A DNA stretch of 63,109 bases, the filler included, from Hyphochytrium catenoides (lineage: Eukaryota > Protista > Hyphochytriomycota): assembly GCA_900088475.1 (NCBI GenBank). It is 12 parts of 12 records of this genome, joined end to end, with 100 filler letters (N's around TTAATTAATTAA, not from the genome) between each part and the next. Parts side by side here need not be neighbours in the genome. Positions count along the whole stretch, not along the records: positions 37,068 to 47,438 come from FLMG01003850.1; 11 more parts are not named here. The stretch is one strand, 5' to 3'. The position numbers and the translations under genes were made by a program. Shown piece after piece: positions 1,416 to 39,670 of this stretch. Below the pieces are notes generated by a model. The model did not search any database, had not been told where the DNA came from, and worked only from the letters and a program-made list of their open reading frames with translations. Position 1 is the stretch's first letter; each line of letters starts with the position of its first letter.

Positions 1416-3632
1416 TTATGAACATTGGCTTGGAAGCCCAAGCTCGCTGTTGGAGACCGAAGTGCTGATGCCCATCCATGACCGCATAGCCGTGATAATA
1501 GCCTTATCTCTGTGTACCCGCGTGTACTTGCCACTCTGCCAATTTCCACTGGCATCAAAGACGGTGTAACCGCATACGTTAGGGTCATGCGCAGGCGTGA
1601 AAGCCACGCTAACGCAGTCCTTCCTTGGTCCCGTGTATCGAGAGCAGTCTGACTTCCCATCTGGGAAGCCCTGTGCGCTGGAGGTAAACGAGTACGATGA
1701 CAGCACAAGCTTGATTTTCCAGTCCGCGTCTGTCCGGGTGAATAGGCGCACTTGAAAGCTTCTATGCTTGTTAAGGTCCCGGTCCTTTAGCAGTACCGAG
1801 CCAGTGTCTCCCATATCCCTTGATGAAGATCCCGGGTTCTGCTGGTCGTGGTCATCGTTTTGGATGACAAACCGGCTCGGGGGAAGGACCCAAGAACCAC
1901 AAGCAGGGAACTCCTTAGGATAATCGGAAGCCCAGATCTTAATCTTGTCTACATCAGAGGAGGCAATGCCCTTGGAGCTGAGGGCATTGTAGAAGTAGGT
2001 GTAGTACTGATAGCTGCTTGGCCTGCAGGCGAGAAGGTCCTTCTCGCCACCCAGGATGATCTCCAGCCAAGAGACAAAGTCTGCAGGCAGGTTGCCACCA
2101 AGGTTCTTATTGAAGCGGCCAAAGATAGCGGAGAGATCATCTGGACGGATGTGCTTGGCTGCATCCACCCTGAAACCAGAGAATCCAATGCCAACAAGCT
2201 CCGTCAAATAGTCGGCAATGCGCTGCTGCACGTAGGGCTTGGACGTATCCAGATCGGTCAGTCCAACTAGCCAACCGCTGTCAAGGATGGTAGGATCAGT
2301 CCAAGAGGAAAGGGACCGTTCACAATGGAAGTCAGTGGGCCCATACGGCACAGCTGGAAACTCCAAAGCTGGGCGATTGCCAGTGTTCGGGTTGAGCTGG
2401 TAGGTCCAGGCATGAGTGTAGAAGGGCGACTGGGCAGTGCCATTCTTGGGGCCCCACCGCTGGCAGCCGCCCTGGTTGTTCCTATGGAAGTTCAGATCGT
2501 TCCCGCTTCCACTCATATGGTTCACGACTGCATCTGCGTAGACCCGAACGCCATTCTTGCGGCAGGTCTCAATCATGCTCTTCAGCTGGCTTCGAGTACC
2601 CATTCGGGAGTGCAGTTTGTAGGAGACAGGCTGATAAGTGAAGAACCAGGGGTTGAGGCCACGAGTATTGTCGTCCAGGTACTCATCAGTGGTGAGGTGC
2701 TCTTGAGGCGGGTTAATCTTCACTCCTAGGTACCCAGCCGGGCCTAGATGAGCCACACATTCCTTCGCGATCTCCTCATAAGGCCAACCGAACAACTCGA
2801 CGATGGCTCCTTTTTGTCCGTCATACTTGTACTTGGAGTTCACCGCGGGAACGTTCCAGACAAAGTCCACAGGCTCCAGTTTAAGCTCCGCCCCCAAGCT
2901 GGCGGAAGAGACGCTGATCATTAGAGAGCCAGTGACCGAGGATGCGGAGGCGGTGAAGACGTTAGAGGTAGAGGTGGCACCATTGTAGCTGTAAGCGAGG
3001 TCAGAGACGGCCTTCTTAGCAAAGGTAACCACCGTGACTTTGGCAGCGGTGCGCGCTGAGTCGGTGTACTCTACTCTGGCATAACCTTGAAGAAGACCAT
3101 AATCCTGGAAGGACGCTTGCCAGTCTGAAGACCCCCTCAAGGGGGTTTGATAGCGTCTGGCCTCATTACTCTCAGGATAGTTAGACTGTGAGCCTTGGCA
3201 GGTGTCCAGCCCATTCCAGTTCGTGCAGCTGTTAGGATCCAATGGTGGCACGACAGTCGGCGTGACAGATGGTTCAGAAGGACCAGGAGTCGGAGTGGGC
3301 GTTGGGTTCGGGGTGGTGGTGGTCGGCGCTGAGGATGGCTCTGGGGCAGGTGTGGGTTGCACTGTTGGTTGAGGGGTGGGCGCGGGACTTGGTCTAAGAG
3401 TTGGTTTGACAGTTGTTGGCTCTGGAGTGGGCTGAGGAGTTGGTTGGGGTGTGGGCTGAGGAGTAGTAGGAGCCACAGTTGGGGGCAGGGAGGGGGTCGG
3501 GATAGGCGAAGGCTGGGGGTTTCCTGTGGGAGAGCTGCAGATGACATCTTCTGCCGCCCAAATGCCATTCTCCATAATTCCCGCGAGCATCACGGCCGCC
3601 AGGGCTGCAGCGGTCTTGATTGATCGCTTCAT
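1416..3632 (-). CDS. Secreted alpha-amylase (GH13) with Pro/Thr-rich N-terminal linker
   Basis: Intronless 738-aa ORF. Signal peptide ([18 protein letters not shown]), ~100-aa PT-rich tract, then GH13 conserved regions [15 protein letters not shown] (nucleophile Asp), WLEI (acid/base Glu) and NDDHD, plus YQPVSY and LVGLTDL. Confidence 0.95.
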
Positions 3633-6600
3633 GATTCTTGACGTTCTCTTGCTATCTGAACAAAGGCGCTTCTACAAGCGTCGGGGGAATGGGATAAGAG
3701 ATGATAAGCCTTGTTGGTTGGAAGGCTTATTGGAAAATGGGCTACTACTAGGAAGTAGCAGGGAGAAGAGAGTTGAAGGGCAGAAGAGACGGTGCACATC
3801 ATACTACCCTTTGTTAAAGGAAAGAGAGTAGACACGGGAGTTTGTATGGGTGCTTGTCAGTGAACTCGTCTGATGATAGCAGAGAGCGGAAGAGAGAGCG
3901 CCAAGGACCTCTTTTCCTTCTTCTGGAGCTTCGGGGTTTAAAGTTGGAGTTCAATAATAGACGAGCAGAATGTCAAAGGTCAACAGCAGCTCAGCAGCAT
4001 CTCTCAGGCTCAACTTGCACACACACGCAAGGTGTAGAACGGACAGCAGCACGACGCCCTGACGTCAAGCAAGGTACCATCTTCTTCCCTCTTCTTCTTT
4101 GTCCACTGCATGGGCAGACACGTACCACCCGGAGATGAGTGTGTGTGTCCATAGATTTGTACGGCGCGACTGCTGGTAAGAGGCGTCAGGCATCCGACTC
4201 GAGGTGTTTGGACACCTCTTATTGGAGAGATGCTAGGCAAGTTGAGGTGCAGCGAAGATCGACCCGAGGAGAGCAGAGCAAGAGGGGTGGAACACCTGAT
4301 CTCACTTTCCCCCCTTCCTCGCACAAACAAGAGGAACAAGGGAGGACACTTCATGGTTTCTTCTGCCCTGCTTGGTCCTCTCGACTGTCTCTCCTCTCTC
4401 CTTCCTCCACCCCTTCTCTATCCTCTCATAGCTTCCTCTTCTCCTCCTCTCTAGCTCTCCCTCACCCCTCCTCTCAAGCCTGTCCCTGCCTCTCCAAAGA
4501 AGCTTTCCCCGTAGCTCTACTGTTTCCCTGCCTCTTCCCCGTTACCAAAGGAAGAGCAAGGCGTGCGGCGGCGGTCGTGGCTGTGTGATGGATGAAGAAG
4601 AAAGAAAGCGATGGCGCGGAGCTGGTGATGGCCATCGGCGCTGCTTTCCTGCCTTTGGTCGCTCACCAACTGCACTCAACCACCACCGGCGGATTACCTT
4701 CAGGTTACACAGCAGACGGGGTCTCTGATCTATGATGAAGGGGGGAATACGATTAGGTGTTGGGAAGACTTCAAGCCCAAAACGTTTCTAAGATTTACCC
4801 ATTACGACACGCCCATGCTCCACGCGTCTCTCCATTGTTATTATAAACCCACGTGATGATCAGTGGGAGTCATACCACGATAGGGTTATCTACTCTTTGA
4901 GGCAGGGGTGCTGACAAATGGGGTATGGGTTTGAGGTTGATGTTCAAGGAGGTTGGCCAGCCGTCTCCGTTGACGTTGGGAGCGAGCCTACAGGCGCTCT
5001 CCTCCTCTCATCAATCGTGGGGCAGACTCATAGCCAGCGAGACAGACAGCTAGCTCTTCAGAGTCTACAGACCACGACGACCACCAGCGGCTAGCTAGTA
5101 GCATGAGGCTGGGCTGCTGGGCTTGCCGGGCTCCCTGATCACGCGGGGCGGAGTCTCTCTTCTCTTGCTCTCTTCCTCTTGTTGGCGGCCCCCACCTCCC
5201 ATAATCCATCCGCAGGTACAACTATCAAAGACCGATCTGCCTGCGTCGAGTAGTCAACGAGCCTTCTTCTTTGTTCTTCTCTCACCACAACATGTCGTTT
5301 AGGCAGCGACGGCTGTGAGGGGAAGAAGGAGGTACAAGGAGGAGGAGAGTAAACTTTTTTGCTGGGGCTGCTGGCGTGCAATCCTAGGAAGAAGACATCT
5401 CTCCGACCGGCTGCCTTTCTTTCACATGCTTGTCTACCCTTTCTGCCGTCATCTCCCTTGCCAACCCGCTCCTCTCGGTGCTGGCGCTTCCTTTGAGTAG
5501 TCGTACAAAGATCTGGGAATCATTACCCTCCAATTGTCTTTCTCCGGTCCACCACGATTCGAAAGATTCTCTTTGCTTCCTAGTTCCTCATTCGGATGCT
5601 ATGATAGAGTAATAGTAGTATGGCCGCCCTCTCTCCTTCCTTTGTCCTCCCTTCTATTGAGATTACTATCTACCGCTTGCTGCTCACTTTAGTCTACCAC
5701 TTCAGCTTCTTCACGTCGTTGGGTTCCCTTAGACAGCATACTTCACTAGTGAAGAATGCTTTGCTTCGTCCAAGTGGAGCATTTCAAGGGCCGATCTAAT
5801 GTTGACAGCAATTTTGATAGAAGATTGAGCATTTTTGGTCCCATCTCCTAGTGGCCTGCCATCATGCAGCAGCATGTGACGGCCATTCCTCGTGTCGCGA
5901 TCTTTGTAGTCTTAGAAGGTGGGTTCAACCAGCAGGACGTCTTGTCCTGTTATCTTTACAAGCGCGGTGCGTGCATTTATCTCTTCGTGCACCTTCATCT
6001 CCCAGAGTTTTTTGTTTCAGCGAGCGCAAGTTCAAGCGCCACTTCAAGGATGGCGGGAAAACTAATGAAGAAATCGATCTTCGTCACCAACTATCGTCAG
6101 CTCAGACTGCCATTTGGACCGGCAGAACTCCAGCACCGCCCACGATTACTTCCGTGCAGCATCTATGCTTATGATTGACCTGTGACGACAATTCTGAGAC
6201 GCCTGACCACGACAGGACTCACACCGCCCGTCGCCTTTGTTCACCGCCTTCCTAGCTCAACTCTATGATAATATAAACGTCTACAATCACTTAGTTCGTA
6301 AGGCAAGTGATCCGTAGATTAGTGAAGCCTCGACCTAGTTTACACCTGGCATTCGCGCTGGCCGCGTTCCTTCTTTCTTCCATAATGTAGGTGTGGGCTC
6401 AGAAATGCCTTCAACCCTGGAGGAGGACGTGGCTTGAAGAAGGGAAGAGCAGCAAGGAACAAGGAGAGCTAGTGATTGCCTTCTGGATGCCAGTTTTCAG
6501 CTGCCCAAGTTGGTGTTCTTGGAGTCATCGGGGTACTTTTGGGTAATTAGGCAACTGCCTCTCAGAAGGCTGTGTATAGCTTACAGACTTTAGTAATCTC

Positions 6601-9452: not shown

Positions 9453-11338
9453 CTAAACTCCTGCGAACCGCGCGTCAGGGCTTCCAAGCTCGCGGTCGCT
9501 CTTGGCGCTCTCAAGCTTGTCCTGGTCCTTTCTCTTCGATTGGGAGAAGATCGGGTCCACGCGGCCAAGAGAGGACATCAAGCTTCTCCTCACGGCTGCG
9601 TCCTTGTCTTCAGGAGCATCCACAATCATTGGAGGCACGTAGTCAGTGCCTTGGAAATAATGAGCGATCAGCATCATGACTCCAATGACGGAGTAGCCGA
9701 CGCAAAGGTGCCAGCCTACATCCCCGTCCTCCCAGGTCCAGCCCACCTTGGTCCCGTGAATGAAGCCAAATAGGGAGAAGATGGCAGCGGAAAAGGTCCA
9801 GATACTGGCCTTGATGAAGTTCCTGTCAATGATGTAGAGCATCATGCACGCCCAGATTAGACCTGTCAACATTTGACCGTGACCAGTATTCCTCAAGCCT
9901 TGCGTCGATGCTGTCATTGCGCTAGCCGCAGCCTGAGCAGTCTTTTGGTTGTTAGCAAAGCCTGGGAACGTCGTCACAACGCTCCCTAGTGGGTCGGCAA
10001 TCGTCGACATTCCCCACTCGGCCAAAGTAGGTGCAATGCCCATGATAAAGACAGGATATTGACGAGGCTTAGCAATGCTCAGCGTTTCTGAGCAAATCAC
10101 CAGACCCACGAATACAATGACCGGAGACAGTGCGTCCACAGAGATGAGCTTCAAAAAAGGCGCTGCCAGCCCGGTCATGCAGAAGATGAAGAAACAGATG
10201 CCATTCGCCAGATTGTACCCTACTCTGCCTCCGATCATCTGATACCCAGGGTGATTAGGATAAACAGTCATTCCCAAGTATGATCCAAAGAGGGCGGTGA
10301 TGGTGGTGCCAATTCCATCTCCAACCATAGACCAGCGGACAGAGTACATGTCTCCGCCCTGATGGCAAAGTTCCACGCAGGTGATAGTTCCAAGGCAGAT
10401 AGCGATTGCCACAGGGATGATGATTCCTAGGAAGCCGTCGATCTTATCGAAGTTATTGATCACATCGCTGATGGGAAACACAAGGCCGTGAAATCCAATT
10501 TCTTTAGAGTTCTTCTCTACCTCAGACCACTTGTTGACCCCGTTGATCCACGCCAGTATTGTGCCCACTAGGAGTGCAAATACAGCGGTAGGAATGGGAC
10601 CCCAGCGAATCTCTCCGAAGTATCCCATCATGACGATGAAGAGAGATACCACGCACACCATAGGATTGACCATGGAGCCCACGATAGAGTTGAGTGTCAA
10701 ATATGCGACAGCAACACCAGAGATGGACGACAGAAGAGCAAGAGGAGGGGTAAACTCTTGCAACTGCTTGGCCACAGCTGTGGAGACAAGAAGAAGGAGG
10801 CCTGTAAGCAGATTGGCAGCAACAGCTACGAGCCATGCAAGCTCTCTAGCATTTTCAATAACGGCGTTTTTTTCCTCATCCGTCTTAGCGTTCTCCAGAC
10901 CTCCAAGGTTGCTAAAGTAGACTCCAAGCACGATGGAGAATGTGAATGTCAAGGTGCTGAGGTAGGGCAGAGGAGATGAGTATAGAGAAAGAGACATTTT
11001 AGCTTATGCAGAGACTCTGTGTGCTGCACAGGGAAGGGCACTTACCCAGGCGTATTAATGCCATAAGGTTGAACAGTAACATCCCTACGACCGGTCTTAT
11101 GAGCATAAAGGTATCCTTGGATAGAATAGTATAGCGACCCCCAGAGCATGCCGATGCCAGTGGCAGGGACAATTCGGGAGTAGGTAATGTCAGGCCCAAG
11201 ATGTTTCTCTATGATGGAGACCACCAGCATAAGTGTGGACAGGTTGTTGCTGAACAGAGAGACGAAGCAGTCTACATCTGCCAGAACAAAGATGGGTATG
11301 GAGCTGAAGAGCGCCCTCAGGTACGCGAGGTTCCACAT
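9453..11338 (-). CDS. Xanthine/uracil/vitamin C (NCS2-like) permease, bacterial-type family; 2 exons
   Basis: Exon 1 11338-11046 (MWNL...DVDCFVSLFSNNL...DVTVQPYGINTPG), intron 11045-10957 (GTAAGT...CTCAG), exon 2 10956-9453 in frame. Many TM helices plus the motifs SMVGDGIGT and TVYPNHPGYQMIGGRVGY. Confidence 0.85.
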
Positions 11339-16822: not shown

Positions 16823-18779
<1,957 letters not shown>

Positions 18780-21067: not shown

Positions 21068-21167
21068 NNNNNNNNNNNNNNNNNNNNNNNNNNNNNNNNN
21101 NNNNNNNNNNNTTAATTAATTAANNNNNNNNNNNNNNNNNNNNNNNNNNNNNNNNNNNNNNNNNNNN
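21068..21167. other. Artificial contig linker (44 N + TTAATTAATTAA + 44 N); also at 27278, 32275, 36968, 47439, 49999, 51993, 54349, 55604, 58024 and 61641
   Basis: The same 100-bp structure recurs 11 times, and TTAATTAATTAA gives stops in all six frames. Confidence 0.99.
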
Positions 21168-23263: not shown

Positions 23264-25596
23264 ATGGAGGCCAAGCAGGTTATCATCTACGAAGGCACAG
23301 TATGGGGAGATCTGCTCTCTTCTGATATCGTGCCAGGCGACACTGCCTTCATGGCCGTCTGTACGGCGCTAGTCTTCTTCATGACGCCTGGACTCGGTAA
23401 CGTCGACTCTCAAGCCATCTTTTCTCCCACTGCTTCCTCTACTAACGCCTCACAATCCATCATGTCTATCTAACGGGGAAAGGTGTCTTTTACGCCGGAC
23501 TAGTCCGCCGGAAGAATGTGATGTCACTCTTCCATCTCTGCATGCTCTCCATGGTGGTGGTCAGCCTTCAGTGGTAAGCTTCACAGCTCCGTTCTAATCC
23601 TCCTCACTTCTGAGGCGCGCCAAGGCAGCTGCTGCTAACGGGCTGGTTGTCCGCTGCCGTTAGGTACCTCTGGGGCTTCTCTCTTGCCTTCAGCGACGAG
23701 CCAACGAACGGGTTCATCGGCGACTTTAAGTTTGCTTTGCTGAGAAAAGGAGGATTGGTCTCACATCCAGGCGCTCCCACGATCCCCTTTGAGCTCTTTG
23801 CCTTGTTTCAGATGATGTGCGCCGCGGTCACGCCTGCGATCACCTTTGGGTCTGCCGCTGAGAGGTAGGAAGTCCCTGAGTACTCGATGTCTTAGGGTCA
23901 CCCACTCTCTCCGGCTCTGCCTCTGTTCTCTACAATCTGTGTCTCACGCTTCGTGTCTCTCTCTCTCTACAGCAGTATGTGTCTGTGTGTGTCTCTCTCT
24001 CTTCTCTCTCTCTCTGACTTTTCCTCTCTTGGTCTTTTTGCCTCGAGTCTCGCTTGATCTCCTCTCTTTCTATATCTTTCTTCGGTCTCTCTACTTCTCC
24101 TTCCCAAAAGTCACTCTCAGAAAAATTTTTCTCTCGCGCCCTCTCTCTGTCTCTCGTCTTCTTTGCAGCCACGTCTGAGCTCCTGACGCCTGATCTGTCT
24201 TTCCGTTTTCTTCTGTTGCCAGCAGAGTGCGGATCCTGCCCTCAATGGTGTTTCTCTTCATCTGGATGACTCTGGTCTACAGCGTGACTTGTTACTGGGC
24301 CTGGGGACCTCATGGGTGGCTCTACGAGCTTGGCTTCTTGGACTTTGCTGGAGGTAAAAGGCATTTTTGCCACCCAATCGGGACTTCTTGGCCCTGTTAC
24401 CGTTCTTCATCGTCGTAACTTTACTCTTCCTCTTCCCGATCCGCGTAAAGGCTCTATGGTCCACATCGGATGCGCCTCTGCAGCTCTGGCCTTCGCTATC
24501 TTTCTTGGCCCTAGAGTTGACCTCAACAGTGCGAATAACGACCACGTGCCCCACAATCTCACTTACGTCCAGATCGGGACTGGGATCCTCTGGTTTGGAT
24601 GGTAAGAAGCTGGGAGCCATAGAATCTACTGATTCATCCGTCTGAGGCCTGTTTCTTCTCCCTTTCTCGTTGTCTTCGTGGACCCAAACTAACGACTGGC
24701 ACTAGGTTTGGCTTCAATGGAGGAAGTGCAATGAAGGCCAATGCGCGCGCTGCTGCCTCGATGACAGCTACGCATCTCAGTGCTTGCGTCGCTGCCCTAG
24801 TCTTCATGGCTCTTGAGTACCGAACCAAGAGAAACTACAACTCGCTCAACTTCTGCGGTGGCGTTCTTGCAGGTCTCGTGACGGCCACGCCTGCGTCAGG
24901 CTTCATCAGCCCCAGTTCCTCCTTGGCCTTCGGTCTGCTCGGTGGCGTTATCTGTTACTATGGGCTCAAGGTGAAGCATCTTCTGAAGTTCGACGATGGT
25001 AAGAACGCAGAGCTTCACTTACCAGGCAGACAAGCGCTAACCATAGCCTTTTCCCGTTTCGCTTCTTTCTTCCCTATCTTTTGACACACGTTGACCGGAA
25101 ATTCCCAGCGTTGGATACCTTTGGCATTCATCTTGTTGGCGGCTCTTTGGGTCTCTTTCTAGCGGGAATCTTTGCACAGCGCAACGTCATCAGTCTCGGA
25201 GCTCCCATTGGCACTAACATGCCAGCTGCAGGATGGCTGGATGGCGTCTACGACCAAGTCCCTATCCAACTTGCAGGCATCTTCGCTGTTGCCGCATATT
25301 CCTTCACGGTCACGTACCTCATCCTCTACGTCGTGGACAAGATCCCCGGCCTTCACTTCCGATTGAGTGCGGAAGATGAAGCTTTAGGCACCGATAAAGC
25401 AGAGCTTGATGAGCAGGCTTATGATTTCGTGCCCGCCAAGGAGAATCCTGCTGATGGTGCTGCGGGAGAGGGCTCTAGGCACTCTGGCGCTTCCGGACTT
25501 AAAGACAGCAGCCAGGGTAAGATGAAAACGCAGCCTTCCAGCTGCAGTGCTGGAGGTCCTCCTAGCCTCAGCGTTAGGCCAATGACCTCAGACTAG
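23264..25596 (+). CDS. amt: Ammonium transporter (Amt/MEP family), multi-exon
   Basis: Exons give GDTAFMAVCTALVFFMTPGLG|VFYAGLVRRKN, YLWGFSLAF, FQMMCAAVTPAITFGSAAER, DFAGG..MVHI, PHNL, LWFGW|FGFNGGS, AGLVTATPASG and DD|ALDTFGIHLVGG. Both conserved pore histidines are present. Confidence 0.97.
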
Positions 25597-27433
25597 TGCA
25601 TGCATGAGAGTAAGGGCGAAGACGATATAGTCGGTTCTTCTTGGTTCTTCTTCTCCTTCTCCAGGATGTCAATCAAGTAAAGAGAGAAAGGCTAACTAAG
25701 TGATCTTCATAATGACTCTTCCTTCGGCAGTACTTTATCTATCTTCTCAGATGCGTTGTCTCTTCTCTCCGTGCACCTCTTCCTTCCACTTCTGAAAGCT
25801 CTCACTTTTTTCTGACTGATGGTACGCCCGAGGGACAGCTTTCATCGTCCTTAAGGGTAGGTCTTTCAATTACCGACCTACTTCTAAGGGGAGATCTGCG
25901 CCCTCATAGTCTAGATGTTTAGAGTTTCCTAGTCAAGGACTGTGCGGGCCTGGACTTTGTCTAGCCTCATTCAAGCTCGGCAGACTGCTTTAGTTTGAAG
26001 CGTTTGAGGGAGTGGGAGCCTTCCCGGGCTCAAGTCTAAAGATTCTATCTTTCCTGTGACAACATTGCGGACTCTGTACTCTAGAGGGGCAAAGTCCTGA
26101 CATCGCCAAGGAAGAGCGTCATGGGGCTCAAACCGCAGATTCTTCCTTCTCCACCAAGGATAGCCCTACACTCAAGCGGACCGTGAGTCTTTGTGGCTCT
26201 TCCTTAGGAAACTCTTGGGCACGGAAGTGAAGCCAAAGTGGAACAATGGTTTGCGCTTAGACGATTGACATTGGAGTGGGATCCGCTGCCATGGCGTTCA
26301 TCAACTATCTTCGCAGTATTATCTGCATTATCCATGAGAGAGCTCCTCCCTCTCCTTAGTATTACAAAGCAGGCCTCTTCCTGGGTGTGTCACGTGGAGC
26401 AGGTAGGTGTATTAGCCCCTTGGCAGCTCGCCAAGTCCACATTTGTGGCTTCTATCGAAGTCTGCAATGTATCTTCGAGGCTACTGGAGCACCTAGTGAC
26501 GGAGAAAGAAGGAGAACGAAAAGCTGGTGCCTTTGGCTGGTGCGAGGAGGGAGGGCGGCGCTTCATTCTCCTTCTCTGCTCTTGCTGTTGGGGCAAATCT
26601 TTATTATGTGGAGCACCTCGTCTGCAGAAATCTTCATCTTCATCCAGGCACCGCCTGCACTACTGTAGAGACAATGGCAACTATCATTAGACCGAAAATA
26701 GCAAATAATCAACAATCATATTCTTTATAAAAAATATGAAGGAATCAGGGCTAATAAGCGCCAAACTCATGCCTTGCACGAGAATAATACTGAGTTGTTA
26801 TTCTCGTAGCCGCTAACGCCCTGGATTTTGACTTTTCAACTCTATCACAAAGTAGAACGAACTTCTCTAATGTTTTCTTCTTTTCTTGTTCTGTCATCAT
26901 CTGTCTGTCGGCCCCGATCGTCGGTCTCCTGTCTCTTGTCTCTTCCTCTCCGCCGCTGTGCTCATTGCTCGAGCTTCAGCTTCTGCTTACTGCTGTTTGG
27001 TGGGAAGGGGAACGACATGTACTCTTAGCTAGAGAAATCCGCAGCGTTAATAATACGCGATTAGTTCTACTGCTGCCCTGGGGAAGAGGAAGACCAAGCA
27101 GCCTGGCTGCCGTCTGGAACAGTTACGCGGCCATTGTCTAGGGCGATGACATAGAAAGCCAAGAGACGCATGTGTGAGGTGGGCAATCTGTTGTTGGGCA
27201 TCTAGGCTATGAGAACCATGCGCCGCTATGAACAGGAAGAACTGCATAGGTTCATGAATGAGTCTTTGTGTCACCAGNNNNNNNNNNNNNNNNNNNNNNN
27301 NNNNNNNNNNNNNNNNNNNNNTTAATTAATTAANNNNNNNNNNNNNNNNNNNNNNNNNNNNNNNNNNNNNNNNNNNNCTCTCTCTCTCTCTCTGTCTAGC
27401 TAGCTCTCTCTTCTTCTCTCTTTCTCTGTGTAC

Positions 27434-31851: not shown

Positions 31852-32675
31852 TCTCTCTCTCNNNNNNNNNNNNNNNNNNNNNNNCTCTCTCACACTCTCT
31901 CTCTCTCTCCTCTCATTCTCTCTCTATTCCTCTTTCTCTATTCACTCTCTATTTCTGGTAAGAGGTCTATGATTATCAAACAGCGGTTATCTTTTGTTAG
32001 ATAAGAAGCCAAAGATGGGCAGTCGTAGTAATATCTATGCTCATCGCCGCCAGGCCTAGGTTGTACAAAGCTGTAGGGACTGTTGTCATAGTAATACGTC
32101 TAGGGATTGACCACAGCCTAGTTGTGATTGGCTAAACTCAAAAAATACGTGCTTTGCCCATTTCGGATATACGAGAAAATCGGGATAGCATCCGACAATA
32201 GGCGACTATATAGAGGCCTTAGGGCTGGAGGAAGCAACTACTTGAAGGGTTATCATACTGCAAATAGAGGTCTTNNNNNNNNNNNNNNNNNNNNNNNNNN
32301 NNNNNNNNNNNNNNNNNNTTAATTAATTAANNNNNNNNNNNNNNNNNNNNNNNNNNNNNNNNNNNNNNNNNNNNAGAGAAACTCGTAAGCAGCATGTTAA
32401 GGATATCAACCCAGAGGAGTGAAGAGACCAATCTGAGCCGTCGCAACAGGAGAGAGAAAGAGAGATCAATAGGTGATGGACGATCATGGCTCGATGAGTA
32501 GAGGAGGAAATAAAGAAGGAGCGACAGGCAGAGCGAAAAGGGAGAAAGGAAAAAGAAGGGAGAGAGACGGAGAGTGACGGAGAGGGATGCAAGGAAAAGA
32601 AAAAAAAGAGAGAGAGAGAGGCAGAGTGAGGAGAGCCCAAGAAACATGACAAGAAGTAAAGAAATAGAGGAGTAC

Positions 32676-36897: not shown

Positions 36898-39011
36898 CTA
36901 CGCGGGATTGTTAGGGCCTTGTGCCTCTCTCTCTCTCTTCTTGTTCTCTGCATCTCTCCTCTCTCTCNNNNNNNNNNNNNNNNNNNNNNNNNNNNNNNNN
37001 NNNNNNNNNNNTTAATTAATTAANNNNNNNNNNNNNNNNNNNNNNNNNNNNNNNNNNNNNNNNNNNNAACAGACAGCACGACCAGGAAAAAGCAAGCAAC
37101 AGCGGCACCGGGTTAGACAGGATGATCAATTGGTCAGCTTTATATGCTGCTCCAGACGGCTCAAGTGCTAGTGATGATGTCACTATTGGAGTTGTTTCCT
37201 ACGAACCTTTGAGCTTCTCACTCAGCTTTCCATGCTGATCTCTCAGGGCTTTGACCTCCGGCTATGATGTTTCAGTTAGCTCAATCCCGTGAGAAAGGAC
37301 AACATAACACCGATGGCTTGCGAAGTACTTCTTGGTAACCGTACCGTCCAAGTAAGACGAAACAGAAGACTGATACCTTGCTAGTATCCAGTGTTCCGCA
37401 GCTGTCTGCTGTCCCATTGCTACTACGGCCCTCGCTTTCCTCCCTNNNNNNNNNNNNNNNNNNNNNNNGGTCTGCTTGCAGAAGGCCGTCAATTCTATGC
37501 TCTAGCTCCTGGAGACAGTACACAAGTGGGCGTTCGTCCAAGCTTAGCAGACAGCACTATCACGCATCCTCAACGGTGTGTCGGGAGGTGGTAACATCTA
37601 TCCTTCACCAGCAAAGAGTCTCTTCCGCCGCCAACCGCTAACTGACCTCCAAAGTCTTCTCTAAGCGGATCCGGGGCAAATCATAGCTCAGGTATCGGAA
37701 GACTCGGTGAATCTATAATGAGAAACATGCCAGAGCAGACAGGTTGATTAGTGATCAGGAAGAGAAGGAGGGCTGGTCAATCATCAGGATGATGATGGTG
37801 GTGGGCAGACGGCAGTAACAACATAAAGAATCGGCCTAAGATAAAGAGAGCTGCGGCTTCAAGGGCAAAGCTAAAGAGAACATGAAGAGACTGAATAAAG
37901 ATAAACAGAGAATGGCAGAAGAAAGACTGAGCTGGAAACCGTCGTATGGCAGTATGAACAACGATGTTCCTACTTAGTTATTTTTATTTAGGAGGACCAC
38001 CAGCATGGCGCTCGTGCGACAGATTCAAGGAACGTACACGCCCACTTCTTCTTCAACCACCTACCTGAATCTCTTCTTCTAGTGTGCTATGAGCCATTGT
38101 CTGGCCTTGCTATCCTCCTGTACGAGAGGATGACCTCCTTCTTCCTTTCTTGGCTTTTCTTTCAGCAGGTGCTCTATCCGTTGTTGTCAATCTTCTAGAG
38201 CTTGTATTGTATGTACTGCTGCCTAACGTGCACTAGAACGGTTGTAGGTCCAAGGAAGGTAGTGGCTTTTCTTGTCGGAGGTCTCGTTGTTAACCTCCTC
38301 TACAAGCTCCGAAATCCATCGACGAAAACCCTGTCGCCCATGGGAAAGCTTATCTTCTCATAATATCAGAGTTGTTCTTGCCTCCTGCTGCCGTCTCTTC
38401 TTCCCTAGCCACCACAGCGCCAAGCACGACTGCCGTCGTCCTCCAGTTATTGCATCATCTGCCTTCTGCTTGCTGTTGGAAGAGCAGAGACAACGGAGGG
38501 ACCGAGGATGAGGACAGGAGGTGGAGGACGAGGAGGAGGCGGCGGAGGAGGAGGAGGGACCATCATCAAGCAGCCCCCACCTAGAAGGAAGTTTTTCTTC
38601 TCACTCACAATACTGAAACGGACAAGCCGGCATCTGAAATCAAATGTTAATTATCTCGGAATGATATTCGGATTATGGCAACGGATCCGTAATCCTCATG
38701 GCGGAGGATGGTTGTGGTGATGATCTTGTCTTCGGGTGGCTGTTGGTCATCATCAATCGTCAAGGAGGAGTGGCAGATGGTCGGTCTGATGATGATGATG
38801 AGTCATCTTCTAGTGCATCTCCTCCGCGTCCTGCCGCCGCTGCTGCGGTTGCTGCCAATGACAGTCTCTCTCAGGCGTCTGCTTATCCCAGCTCGATATG
38901 AACACAACCTCCTCTAGATCCTTATATCACGTAACGCAAACAGAAAAGAATAAGAGTCTTGGCTGCAATCATAGCCGCAGTCTTACTGAAAGTTTGACGC
39001 GCCTGGAGTTA

Positions 39012-39380
39012 TCACATGTCCCATCTCATCACAGTAAGGTCCGCCCAGCTGCCATTAGCTAGAGATTGCACCTTAGCACTAACGCGTTGTGAGGTATCGA
39101 CTGGCACAGTCATGATCTGGGAGGTGTAGGTTCCTGTCGGTGTTGCCCCTATGTCAAGCTCTCCATCGGAAGGATTCAAAGTCACAGATACAGTGCTCAT
39201 TGCTCCAGAGAGGTTGTTCAATCGAAGGCGCAAGACAGCACTGCCAACAGTCTTGGGCAGTATACTCGATAGACTATAAGGACTGTAGGTAGTTCCTGTG
39301 ATAGACTGACTTACCAGGTCACTGACAAAGCGGACAGAGCCATCTTCTTGCATTACAGAGTTGACGAAGGTTGCGTTACC
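39012..39380 (-). CDS. Intronless orphan beta-rich ORF fragment, possibly a viral structural/fibre-like C-terminal domain
   Basis: Open frame ...ATFVNSVMQEDGSVRFVSDL...YSLSSILPKTVGSAVLRLRLNN...QIMTVPVDTSQRVSAKVQ...WDM*. Ser/Thr/Val-rich and abuts the viral helicase fragment. Confidence 0.4.
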   Translation of the reverse strand, partial: GNATFVNSVMQEDGSVRFVSDLVSQSITGTTYSPYSLSSILPKTVGSAVLRLRLNNLSGAMSTVSVTLNPSDGELDIGATPTGTYTSQIMTVPVDTSQRVSAKVQSLANGSWADLTVMRWDM

Positions 39381-39670
39381 GACCATGACTTTATCCCTGC
39401 CGGGTTCATTGGCCTCCATAGTGGTATTGAGAGAACTACTATCATGAACAACATTACAAAGTACAATGCCTTGGACAACGCGAACGGGTACAAGGACCGT
39501 CTTCTCTTGGGATCAAAGTTTATTCGTTCGAGAGGGACTTAACTTCAAAGCCGTGCGGCAACTCTTCGTCATGTCTCTACCGAACGATATACCATCCTTA
39601 CTCCAAGTCTTCGGTCGTACAGTGCGTCGGGGATCTCACCTTGAGCTACCACCAGACCAGCGCGAGCAAG
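39381..39670 (+). pseudogene. Endogenous NCLDV SF2 helicase fragment (asfarvirus D1133L / VETF small-subunit-like), frameshifted
   Basis: Removing a 4-bp tandem duplication (TTCG, 39523-39530) gives HDFIPAGFIGLHSGIERTTIMNNITKYNALDNANGYKDRLLLGSKFIREGLNFKAVRQLFVMSLPNDIPSLLQVFGRTVRRGSHLELPPDQRE. This has helicase motifs V (EGLN) and VI (QxxGRxxR) plus the NCLDV-type SHxxLPPxxR tail. Confidence 0.8.

What the first reader, a model, noticed from the sequence alone, without database searches (positions are those of the whole stretch)
39381..39670. Endogenous giant-virus relic: Asfuvirales-like D1133L/VETF helicase fragment in a protist genome
Seen in sequence: two overlapping + strand frames join into one SF2 helicase C-terminal segment once a 4-bp duplication (TTCGTTCG) is removed: HDFIPAGFIGLHSGIE...RLLLGSKFIREGLNFKAVR...MSLPNDIPSLLQVFGRTVRRGSHLELPPDQRE. 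Established knowledge: the GSxxxxEGxxxxxVR / QxxGRxxRxxSHxxLPPxxR combination is typical of NCLDV D6R/D11L-family transcription helicases, not cellular helicases. From memory it closely parallels ASFV D1133L (HxFIP, LHSxIE, EGLNF, MSLPxDIP, QVFGR). Inference: an asfarvirus-related giant virus infected this lineage and left a decayed integration on the same scaffold as spliced or host-type genes (QPRT, NHE). That could be a new host-virus link.
Basis: partly seen in the sequence, partly recalled or inferred. Interest (0 to 1): 0.9.

Follow-up and report, generated by a model that had tools for sequence, protein, structure and literature searches.

The report
Giant-virus scrap in a protist genome
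A 770-base scrap holding a broken piece of a giant-virus helicase gene (kin of an African swine fever virus gene) and a piece of a second, likely viral gene sits beside an ordinary metabolic gene of a microbial eukaryote; it likely came from a sister strain of a larger virus-like sequence found in the same organism, a known kind of viral fossil that likely records repeated infection.

Summary
39376-39666 is a frameshifted 9% piece of an Asfuvirales D1133L-type helicase gene (55% identical to the gene of an African-swine-fever-virus-type record, best hit 61%; cellular helicases score at chance). It is not an assembly chimera: single contigs of two samples join it to the host QPRT gene. The insert is larger than reported (38895-39666) and is a mosaic: the helicase piece is fused, over a 5-base overlap, to the oppositely oriented tail of a second coding gene. 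The organism's own sequencing runs hold long contigs (9.8 and 21 kb) that match both pieces at about 88% and run on in frame. 24 of 27 listed helicase differences are synonymous (23% expected if neutral), so the scrap did not simply decay from that copy: it likely came from a sister virus, recently. The host is not placed: QPRT hits oomycetes best (65-69%) but lies outside them. Asfarvirus-like inserts in oomycetes and a hyphochytrid are published, so the host-virus link is probably not new. Verdict: real, new member of a known kind, with a useful hint of repeated infection.

The parts
38895..39666 (.). Whole foreign insert, about 772 bases, a mosaic of pieces from at least two genes
   Evidence: covered piece by piece by long contigs of the same organism that run on with other sequence beyond 38895 and 39666
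39376..39666 (+). Fragment of an Asfuvirales D1133L-type SF2 helicase gene (second RecA-like domain region with motif VI, about 9% of the gene); no start, no N-terminal motor half
   Evidence: 287 letters of a 9813-base contig align with 33 differences
39523..39530 (+). Frameshift at a tandem 4-mer; absent from the long related copy
   Evidence: table 4 (the aligner sets the gap a few letters upstream; its exact place is ambiguous)
39012..39380 (-). 3' part (122 codons and stop) of a second gene, beta-rich, likely viral, possibly a fibre/spike-type domain (weak lead)
   Evidence: matches a 21222-base contig at about 89%; 6 of 8 listed differences on third codon positions; NF048003 E 5e-4, below cut-off
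39376..39380 (.). 5-base overlap where the two oppositely oriented gene pieces are joined (microhomology)
   Evidence: Helicase-copy alignment starts at 39376; the other copy's loose end, aligned by hand, matches 12 of 18 letters up to 39380 and then breaks
38895..38963 (-). Downstream flank of the second gene, matching the first of two tandem look-alike gene ends on the 21-kb contig
   Evidence: tables 5, 5c, 8
39667..40011 (.). Right flank with short (10-15 base) inverted copies of insert sequence; possibly templated repair filler
   Evidence: 5 inverted matches against 0.6 expected; one other place in the window reaches this level; 6 of 6 mismatches are transitions
40361..41254 (-). Host quinolinate phosphoribosyltransferase (QPRT/NadC), 297 aa, no intron
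   Evidence: best hits oomycetes 65-69%; same contig as the insert
42514..43732 (+). Exons of a spliced host Na+/H+ exchanger gene (gene ends not mapped)
   Evidence: heterozygous bubbles in its region

Best explanation
38895-39666 is a small insert in host DNA that joins a frameshifted piece of an Asfuvirales D1133L-type helicase gene to the tail of a second, likely viral gene, and it was likely pasted in recently by error-prone break repair from a virus that was a sister strain of a larger virus-like sequence present in the same organism. Shown: the identity of the helicase piece, its linkage to QPRT, the two-piece build, the long in-frame related copies, and the synonymous pattern of differences. 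Inferred: pieces of viral DNA reached the nucleus during an infection that the cell survived; they were joined to each other over 5 shared bases and to the chromosome without target-site duplication (microhomology-mediated end joining, perhaps with templated filler on the right); the insert then became fixed on both chromosome copies and took one frameshift and few other changes. It cannot make a working helicase and is most likely an inert fossil.
For: Identity: best of 611 hits 61%; 55% over 94 residues to the helicase of ASFV-type record L007, whose next gene is D339L/RPB7, against 30-36% to other SF2 paralogues of the same loci; tree split from those paralogues 100% SH-aLRT; PDB: poxvirus NPH-I 4.6e-5, VETF small subunit 1e-3, human DEAD-box E>=1. 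Linkage: contigs 39036-41440 (X1) and 38939-41440 (X2) span insert and QPRT; depth 530 and 33.4 against 185-327 and 11-18 for single alleles nearby; no joint for an empty allele. Source: contigs of 9813 and 21222 bases match at about 88-89% in 3 of 4 runs laid and run on in frame. 22 of 27 classified helicase differences at third positions, 24 of 27 synonymous against 23% expected, dS about 0.5-0.7, dN/dS 0.02-0.07. With 212 non-synonymous sites, 3 to 8 changes bound neutral decay at roughly 1.4-4%.
Against: The long contigs could not be read beyond 30 letters past each end, so that they belong to one viral genome is inferred from similar depths, length and co-capture; the second gene has no homologue found and is viral only by association. 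All runs are assembled contigs of one study, possibly the data behind this window; no long read or PCR. Only 28 of 33 helicase and 8 of about 43 second-gene differences were listed by the tool. The repair mechanism rests on one 5-base overlap read by hand and on short matches that one other place in the window also reaches (4 of 185 overlapping control windows at 5 or more, 2 of them this locus itself). The 95-column tree resolves little inside the clade (47 of 90 inner branches open, quick method).
Confidence: 0.82

Rival explanations
1. The insert is a partial copy spread inside the genome from the large resident viral element by recombination, then decayed, as described for Acanthamoeba viral insertions.
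For: A long related copy of both pieces is in the same organism; partial copies of large insertions are reported in Acanthamoeba (bioRxiv 10.1101/2024.10.31.621330, abstract).
Against: Neutral decay of two genomic copies would give about 23% synonymous differences; 24 of 27 are synonymous (P 8e-13). It survives only if the source was another, unseen or since-lost element, or if the resident one went on evolving as a live virus; both still need two viral lineages.
Confidence: 0.08
2. The insert is kept because it serves the host, for example as a source of small RNAs against the related virus (two opposite gene pieces downstream of a transcribed gene).
For: Present at two-allele depth in both samples, and no difference listed between window and runs over 38939-40251 while the left flank shows 10 in 1414 bases in X2; 88% identity to the resident copy leaves matching stretches.
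Against: The low-difference tract also covers most of QPRT, and X1 shows few differences on either side, so loss of heterozygosity or bubble-popping explains it; nothing here shows transcription.
Confidence: 0.05
3. Assembly chimera: viral or contaminant DNA wrongly joined to host sequence.
For: The assembly is fragmented, and 38895-39084 resembles two places on another contig, which could mislead an assembler.
Against: Independent contig building in 3 runs of 2 samples crosses the right junction, two of them into QPRT, and short contigs overlap across the left one; the insert differs from the long copy at 11-12% of sites and has host two-allele depth.
Confidence: 0.02
4. Gene pieces captured and carried here by a host transposon (Helitron or Pack-type element).
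For: Mosaics of short gene pieces in both orientations are typical of such elements (own knowledge).
Against: No terminal inverted repeat or target-site duplication at 38895 and 39666; the ends are covered by the long contigs themselves, not by a high-copy repeat. No dedicated Helitron scan was run.
Confidence: 0.03

Closest known systems
African swine fever virus D1133L (homologue of vaccinia D6, early transcription factor small subunit; PMC7163114, passages)
   Same: 55% identity over 94 residues to the matching gene of ASFV-type record L007; same clade in the tree; motif QxxGRxxRxxSHxxLP present
   Different: Only 9% of the gene, frameshifted, in a eukaryote's chromosome; nearest sequences are unnamed environmental proteins (P0004, P0031, L005), not ASFV
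Asfarvirus-like sequences in Hyphochytrium catenoides (PMC5795050, section 2.8 read whole; PMC5294986, passages)
   Same: Diploid, heterozygous host with long low-variation virus-like stretches and viral genes linked to host genes; same viral order
   Different: Those reports deal with whole genes on two large scaffolds; here a sub-gene mosaic in a gene-dense host region that differs from the long copy at synonymous sites. The host here was not identified, and the papers' supplementary gene tables were not read
Asfarvirus-like insertions in Phytophthora and Pythium (PMC8204020, passages)
   Same: Partial viral genes including a helicase in a stramenopile genome, best hits to asfarviruses
   Different: There they lie among transposons in a gene-sparse region and are argued to stem from an old invasion; this one looks young and lies between housekeeping genes
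Scattered partial viral insertions of Acanthamoeba (bioRxiv 10.1101/2024.10.31.621330, abstract and outline) and the Rhizophagus 1.5-Mb element (PMC10640383, passages)
   Same: Decayed, chimeric Nucleocytoviricota DNA in host chromosomes
   Different: Size (0.8 kb), and divergence from the large copy that is synonymous, not neutral

Membership tests
Asfuvirales D1133L-type helicase (origin of the fragment) | Groups with D1133L orthologues, apart from the other viral SF2 paralogues | tested here: met
   85 rows against 11 paralogues, 100% SH-aLRT; 32-55% to orthologues, 30-36% and far lower scores to paralogues
Asfuvirales D1133L-type helicase (origin of the fragment) | Motif VI region QxxGRxxRxxSHxxLP and upstream HxF/YxP | tested here: met
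   both in the fragment; in 124 and 131 of 151 hits. My pattern for the GSxxIxEGxNF stretch (80 of 151 hits) does not match the fragment, because the break lies inside it
Asfuvirales D1133L-type helicase (as a working gene) | Full-length protein of about 1000-1500 aa with DExH motif II | tested here: not met
   95 of about 1100 residues, no DExH, frameshift; median hit length 1183
Asfuvirales D1133L-type helicase (gene order) | RPB7-like gene (D339L) nearby | tested here: not met
   Found in 45 of 83 viral loci L002-L084, some of them the same contig; nothing else in the window matches those loci. Not testable on the long contig
Endogenous viral element (small) | Viral sequence continuous with host genes, at host depth, with signs of decay | tested here: met
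   frameshift
Giant endogenous viral element (GEVE) | Tens to hundreds of kb with several hallmark genes (capsid, PolB, packaging ATPase, RNA polymerase) | tested here: not met
   For this locus: 772 bases, one hallmark piece; six-frame window against 4426 ORFs of 83 viral loci gave no other credible hit
Giant endogenous viral element (the long related contigs) | Hallmark genes and junctions to host DNA | not testable with these tools
   No genome held; read laying shows only the matching parts and 30 letters beyond
Pseudofungi (oomycetes and hyphochytrids) as host | Host genes branch with or beside oomycetes | tested here: inconclusive
   19 of the 20 best QPRT hits with or without name include 18 named oomycetes at 63-69%, but the gene lies outside the oomycete clade, and sisterhood is marginally rejected (p-AU 0.04); one gene, no hyphochytrid in the set
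Transposon-captured gene pieces (Helitron, Pack-TIR) | Terminal repeats or hairpin-CTRR end, target-site signature, many copies | tested here: inconclusive
   No terminal repeat, target-site duplication or high-copy end seen; no dedicated scan

The most novel reading that the evidence does not exclude
The long, in-frame, low-variation contigs are the genome of a still-living Asfuvirales virus carried by this organism (latent or partly episomal; its depth relative to the host locus is 0.42 in one sample and 0.8-1.35 in the other), and the scrap is the footprint of a recent infection by a sister strain. That would make this host a handle on an extant asfuvirus of a fungus-like protist, a group from which none had been isolated according to PMC10640383 (2023, said of oomycetes).
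Probability: 0.2. Interest if true: 0.75.

Novelty: new member of a known kind. Interest (0 to 1): 0.42.

Why it matters
Small giant-virus fossils in protist genomes are common, and Asfuvirales DNA in oomycete-like hosts is published, so the relic alone is ordinary. What adds value is the pair: a young scrap and a long in-frame copy in one organism that differ almost only at synonymous sites. That is direct evidence that at least two closely related asfuviruses met this lineage, and that the virus was evolving under selection until recently, where one old invasion has been argued for oomycetes (PMC8204020). It points to a host in which such a virus could be looked for, and the junctions give a readable example of how viral DNA scraps enter the chromosomes of a microbial eukaryote.

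Tried and rejected
No genome held for the window, so hallmark genes could not be sought genome-wide; viral records could not be searched by handle. Second gene piece: no Pfam or PHROG family; one viral-contig match that is a chance 10-residue likeness in a phage contig; none of 844 candidates among longer proteins; no match in phage records; single-sequence fold poor (pLDDT 46) and its BFVD search empty at E<=0.001; Atlas first search gave tail-tip/fibre clusters at 0.88, a lead only, and a second Atlas search did not complete. P0004 found nothing in metagenome contigs; the fragment found 4 loci at 51-56%, none closer. Names: 20 top hits looked up, none informative. No RNA holder listed. Run X4 laid nothing (80 records). 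The careful helicase tree did not finish; the quick tree is reported. Earlier scan notes: nothing. Rejected: cellular DEAD-box origin; Q706L/NPH-I-type paralogue, although NPH-I is the best PDB hit, because the tree and scores favour D1133L orthologues; a host placed inside oomycetes. One difference next to the break (39526) was left out of the codon count as its alignment is ambiguous, and 5 were not listed by the tool; both extremes for those 5 were computed.

Full report
Observation. The two + strand frames and the tandem 4-mer at 39523-39530 are as described. Read through with X at the break, 39381-39669 gives 96 residues without a stop. The window is not one molecule: scaffolds are joined by N44-TTAATTAATTAA-N44 linkers; the finding lies in scaffold 37068-47438, in the gap-free piece 37469-46617, with an intronless QPRT and a spliced Na+/H+ exchanger.

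What the gene is. Against 1.84 billion representatives the piece finds 611 proteins at E<=0.001, the best at 61% identity and E 3.8e-28; the listed hits have a median length of 1183 aa. Twenty of them were looked up and carry no useful name. Identity therefore comes from viral contigs: 3 loci by the piece itself, 80 of 97 by an alignment of top hits. In locus L007 the next gene is ASFV D339L/RPB7 (E 1.6e-214 to PDB 8q3b_D), so its helicase of about 1130 aa is D1133L; the piece is 55% identical to it over 94 residues, against 30-36% to other SF2 helicases of the same loci. A quick tree of 96 rows and 95 columns separates the piece and 84 others from 11 paralogues at 100% and puts it nearest to unnamed P0004, P0031 and L005 (support 90); finer structure is unresolved. 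In PDB the best hits are poxvirus NPH-I (4.6e-5) and VETF small subunit (1e-3); human DEAD-box proteins score E>=1. D1133L is described as the homologue of vaccinia D6 (PMC7163114, passages). The piece covers about 9% of the gene and lacks motif II, so it cannot encode a working enzyme.

Is it in the host chromosome? Three public DNA runs of two samples, one study, hold the scaffold. Their contigs 39036-41440 (X1), 38939-41440 (X2) and 38975-40251 (X3) cross the right end of the piece, the first two into QPRT; depth is 530 and 33.4 where single alleles nearby have 185-327 and 11-18; no joint for an empty allele is listed. These are contigs, perhaps from the data behind this window, and depth is not copy number; still a chimera is unlikely, and the insert appears to be on both chromosome copies.

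The decisive result. Laid at 80% likeness, 3 of 4 runs show long contigs that match the region and run on beyond it. A 9813-base contig covers 39376-39666 with 33 differences in 287 letters and without the frameshift; its 30-letter loose ends, translated by hand, are open in the helicase frame, and the downstream one reads like the residues that follow in P0004, P0005 and P0008. A 21222-base contig (17584 + 4292 in X1) covers 38985-39362 with 43 differences, and about 1 kb away also 38895-38963 and 38995-39084, so it holds two tandem look-alike gene ends. The insert is thus 38895-39666: the tail of a minus-strand gene (122 codons, 39380-39015) fused to the helicase piece. By hand, the second copy's loose end matches 12 of 18 further letters up to 39380, five of the six mismatches on third positions, and the helicase copy starts at 39376: a 5-base overlap. 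There is no target-site duplication or terminal repeat.

How the copies differ. Of 27 classified helicase differences, 22 are at third positions and 24 synonymous, against 23% expected without selection (P 8e-13); dS is about 0.5-0.7 and dN/dS 0.02-0.07, whichever way the 5 unlisted sites fall. In the second gene 6 of 8 listed differences are third-position (P 0.02), so it is a real coding frame. Two genomic copies decaying neutrally cannot give this. The divergence arose in a virus under purifying selection: the scrap came from a sister strain, or the long copy went on evolving as a virus. Three to eight changes at 212 non-synonymous sites, plus one frameshift, bound decay since insertion at roughly 1.4-4%: young. 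The second gene has no homologue found; leads to fibre or spike domains are weak (Atlas 0.88; NF048003 E 5e-4, below cut-off). That it is viral is inferred from co-capture and from its contig's depth tracking the helicase contig in all three runs (226/222, 27.9/32, 6.98/8.45).

Mechanism (inferred). Viral DNA pieces present during an infection that the cell survived were joined by microhomology-mediated repair into a chromosome break downstream of QPRT. The right flank 39730-40011 holds 5 short inverted matches to the insert against 0.6 expected (2 and 0 of 1000 Markov shuffles reach 5), with 6 of 6 mismatches transitions in six matches picked after seeing them, which would fit templated filler; but among 185 overlapping control windows one other place reaches 6, and the threshold was chosen after the fact. 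This is suggestive only.

Host. QPRT's best hits are oomycetes at 65-69%, but in trees it lies outside the oomycete clade without a starred home, and sisterhood with oomycetes is marginally rejected (p-AU 0.04). A stramenopile near the oomycetes, such as a hyphochytrid, is my best guess (about 60%); it is not shown. Heterozygous bubbles indicate a diploid.

Comparison with print. Asfarvirus-like core genes are reported for Hyphochytrium and several Phytophthora and Pythium genomes (PMC5294986, passages). PMC5795050 (passages and section 2.8) reports 45 viral-like genes, 38 on two low-SNP scaffolds, PCR-confirmed linkage to a host gene, transcripts of polB but not of the capsid gene, and no particles; it leaves open whether the region is integrated or a captured viral genome. 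PMC8204020 (12 of 15 passages) reports partial viral genes with a helicase in Phytophthora. Partial, chimeric copies of viral insertions are described in Acanthamoeba (abstract). Searches listed no paper on a small insert differing synonymously from a resident element in such a host; I saw listings only, and supplements that I did not open (gene tables of PMC5795050 and PMC8204020) may bear on this.

Most novel reading. The long contigs' depth relative to the insert's contig is 0.42 in X1, 0.84-0.96 in X2 and 1.1-1.35 in X3 (X2 and X3 are one sample). A fixed hemizygous element should stay near 0.5. Library bias can do this and the tool warns that depth is no copy number, and the published hyphochytrid work saw no particles; so a live or partly episomal virus gets 0.2.

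Verdict. Real, correctly named, integrated; a new member of a known kind, with a clear sign of two related viruses in one host. Interest 0.42.

Noticed in passing
window 21068-21167, 27278-27377, 32275-32374, 36968-37067, 47439-47538 and six more: Artificial linkers N44-TTAATTAATTAA-N44 join separate scaffolds; neighbours across them are not linked.
   Followed up: yes
runs X1-X3, contigs of 9813, 17584, 4292 and 21222 bases: Long bubble-free contigs of a likely large viral element; relative depth differs about twofold between the two samples. X1 and X2 share a longest record of 53978 bases, not examined.
   Followed up: partly
window 38939-40251 and on to 41236: Almost no differences between window and runs over about 2.3 kb (one in X2), while flanks show many; a homozygous tract or bubble-popping.
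   Followed up: no
window 53204-54103 (-): Intronless SIMPL/DUF541 gene (PF04402, E 4e-37), a mostly bacterial family by my recollection; possible horizontal transfer, or a contaminant scaffold.
   Followed up: no
window 9453-11003 (-): 516-codon multi-pass membrane protein with no Pfam or NCBIfam hit; looks like a permease by eye.
   Followed up: partly
window 1416-3671 (-): Intronless, likely secreted alpha-amylase with a Pro/Thr-rich stalk (PF00128).
   Followed up: no
window 49418-49891 (+): Ty3/Gypsy integrase tail relic with SH3 and chromodomain hits below cut-off.
   Followed up: no
window-wide: Very many (AG)n/(CT)n microsatellites, which create spurious long ORFs; aldo-keto reductase at 17121-17639 and ammonium transporter at 25003-25596.
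   Followed up: no
P0019 with P0282-P0286: Short (113-160 aa) proteins nearly identical to the ASFV-type helicase region, from Logan contigs; not examined.
   Followed up: no
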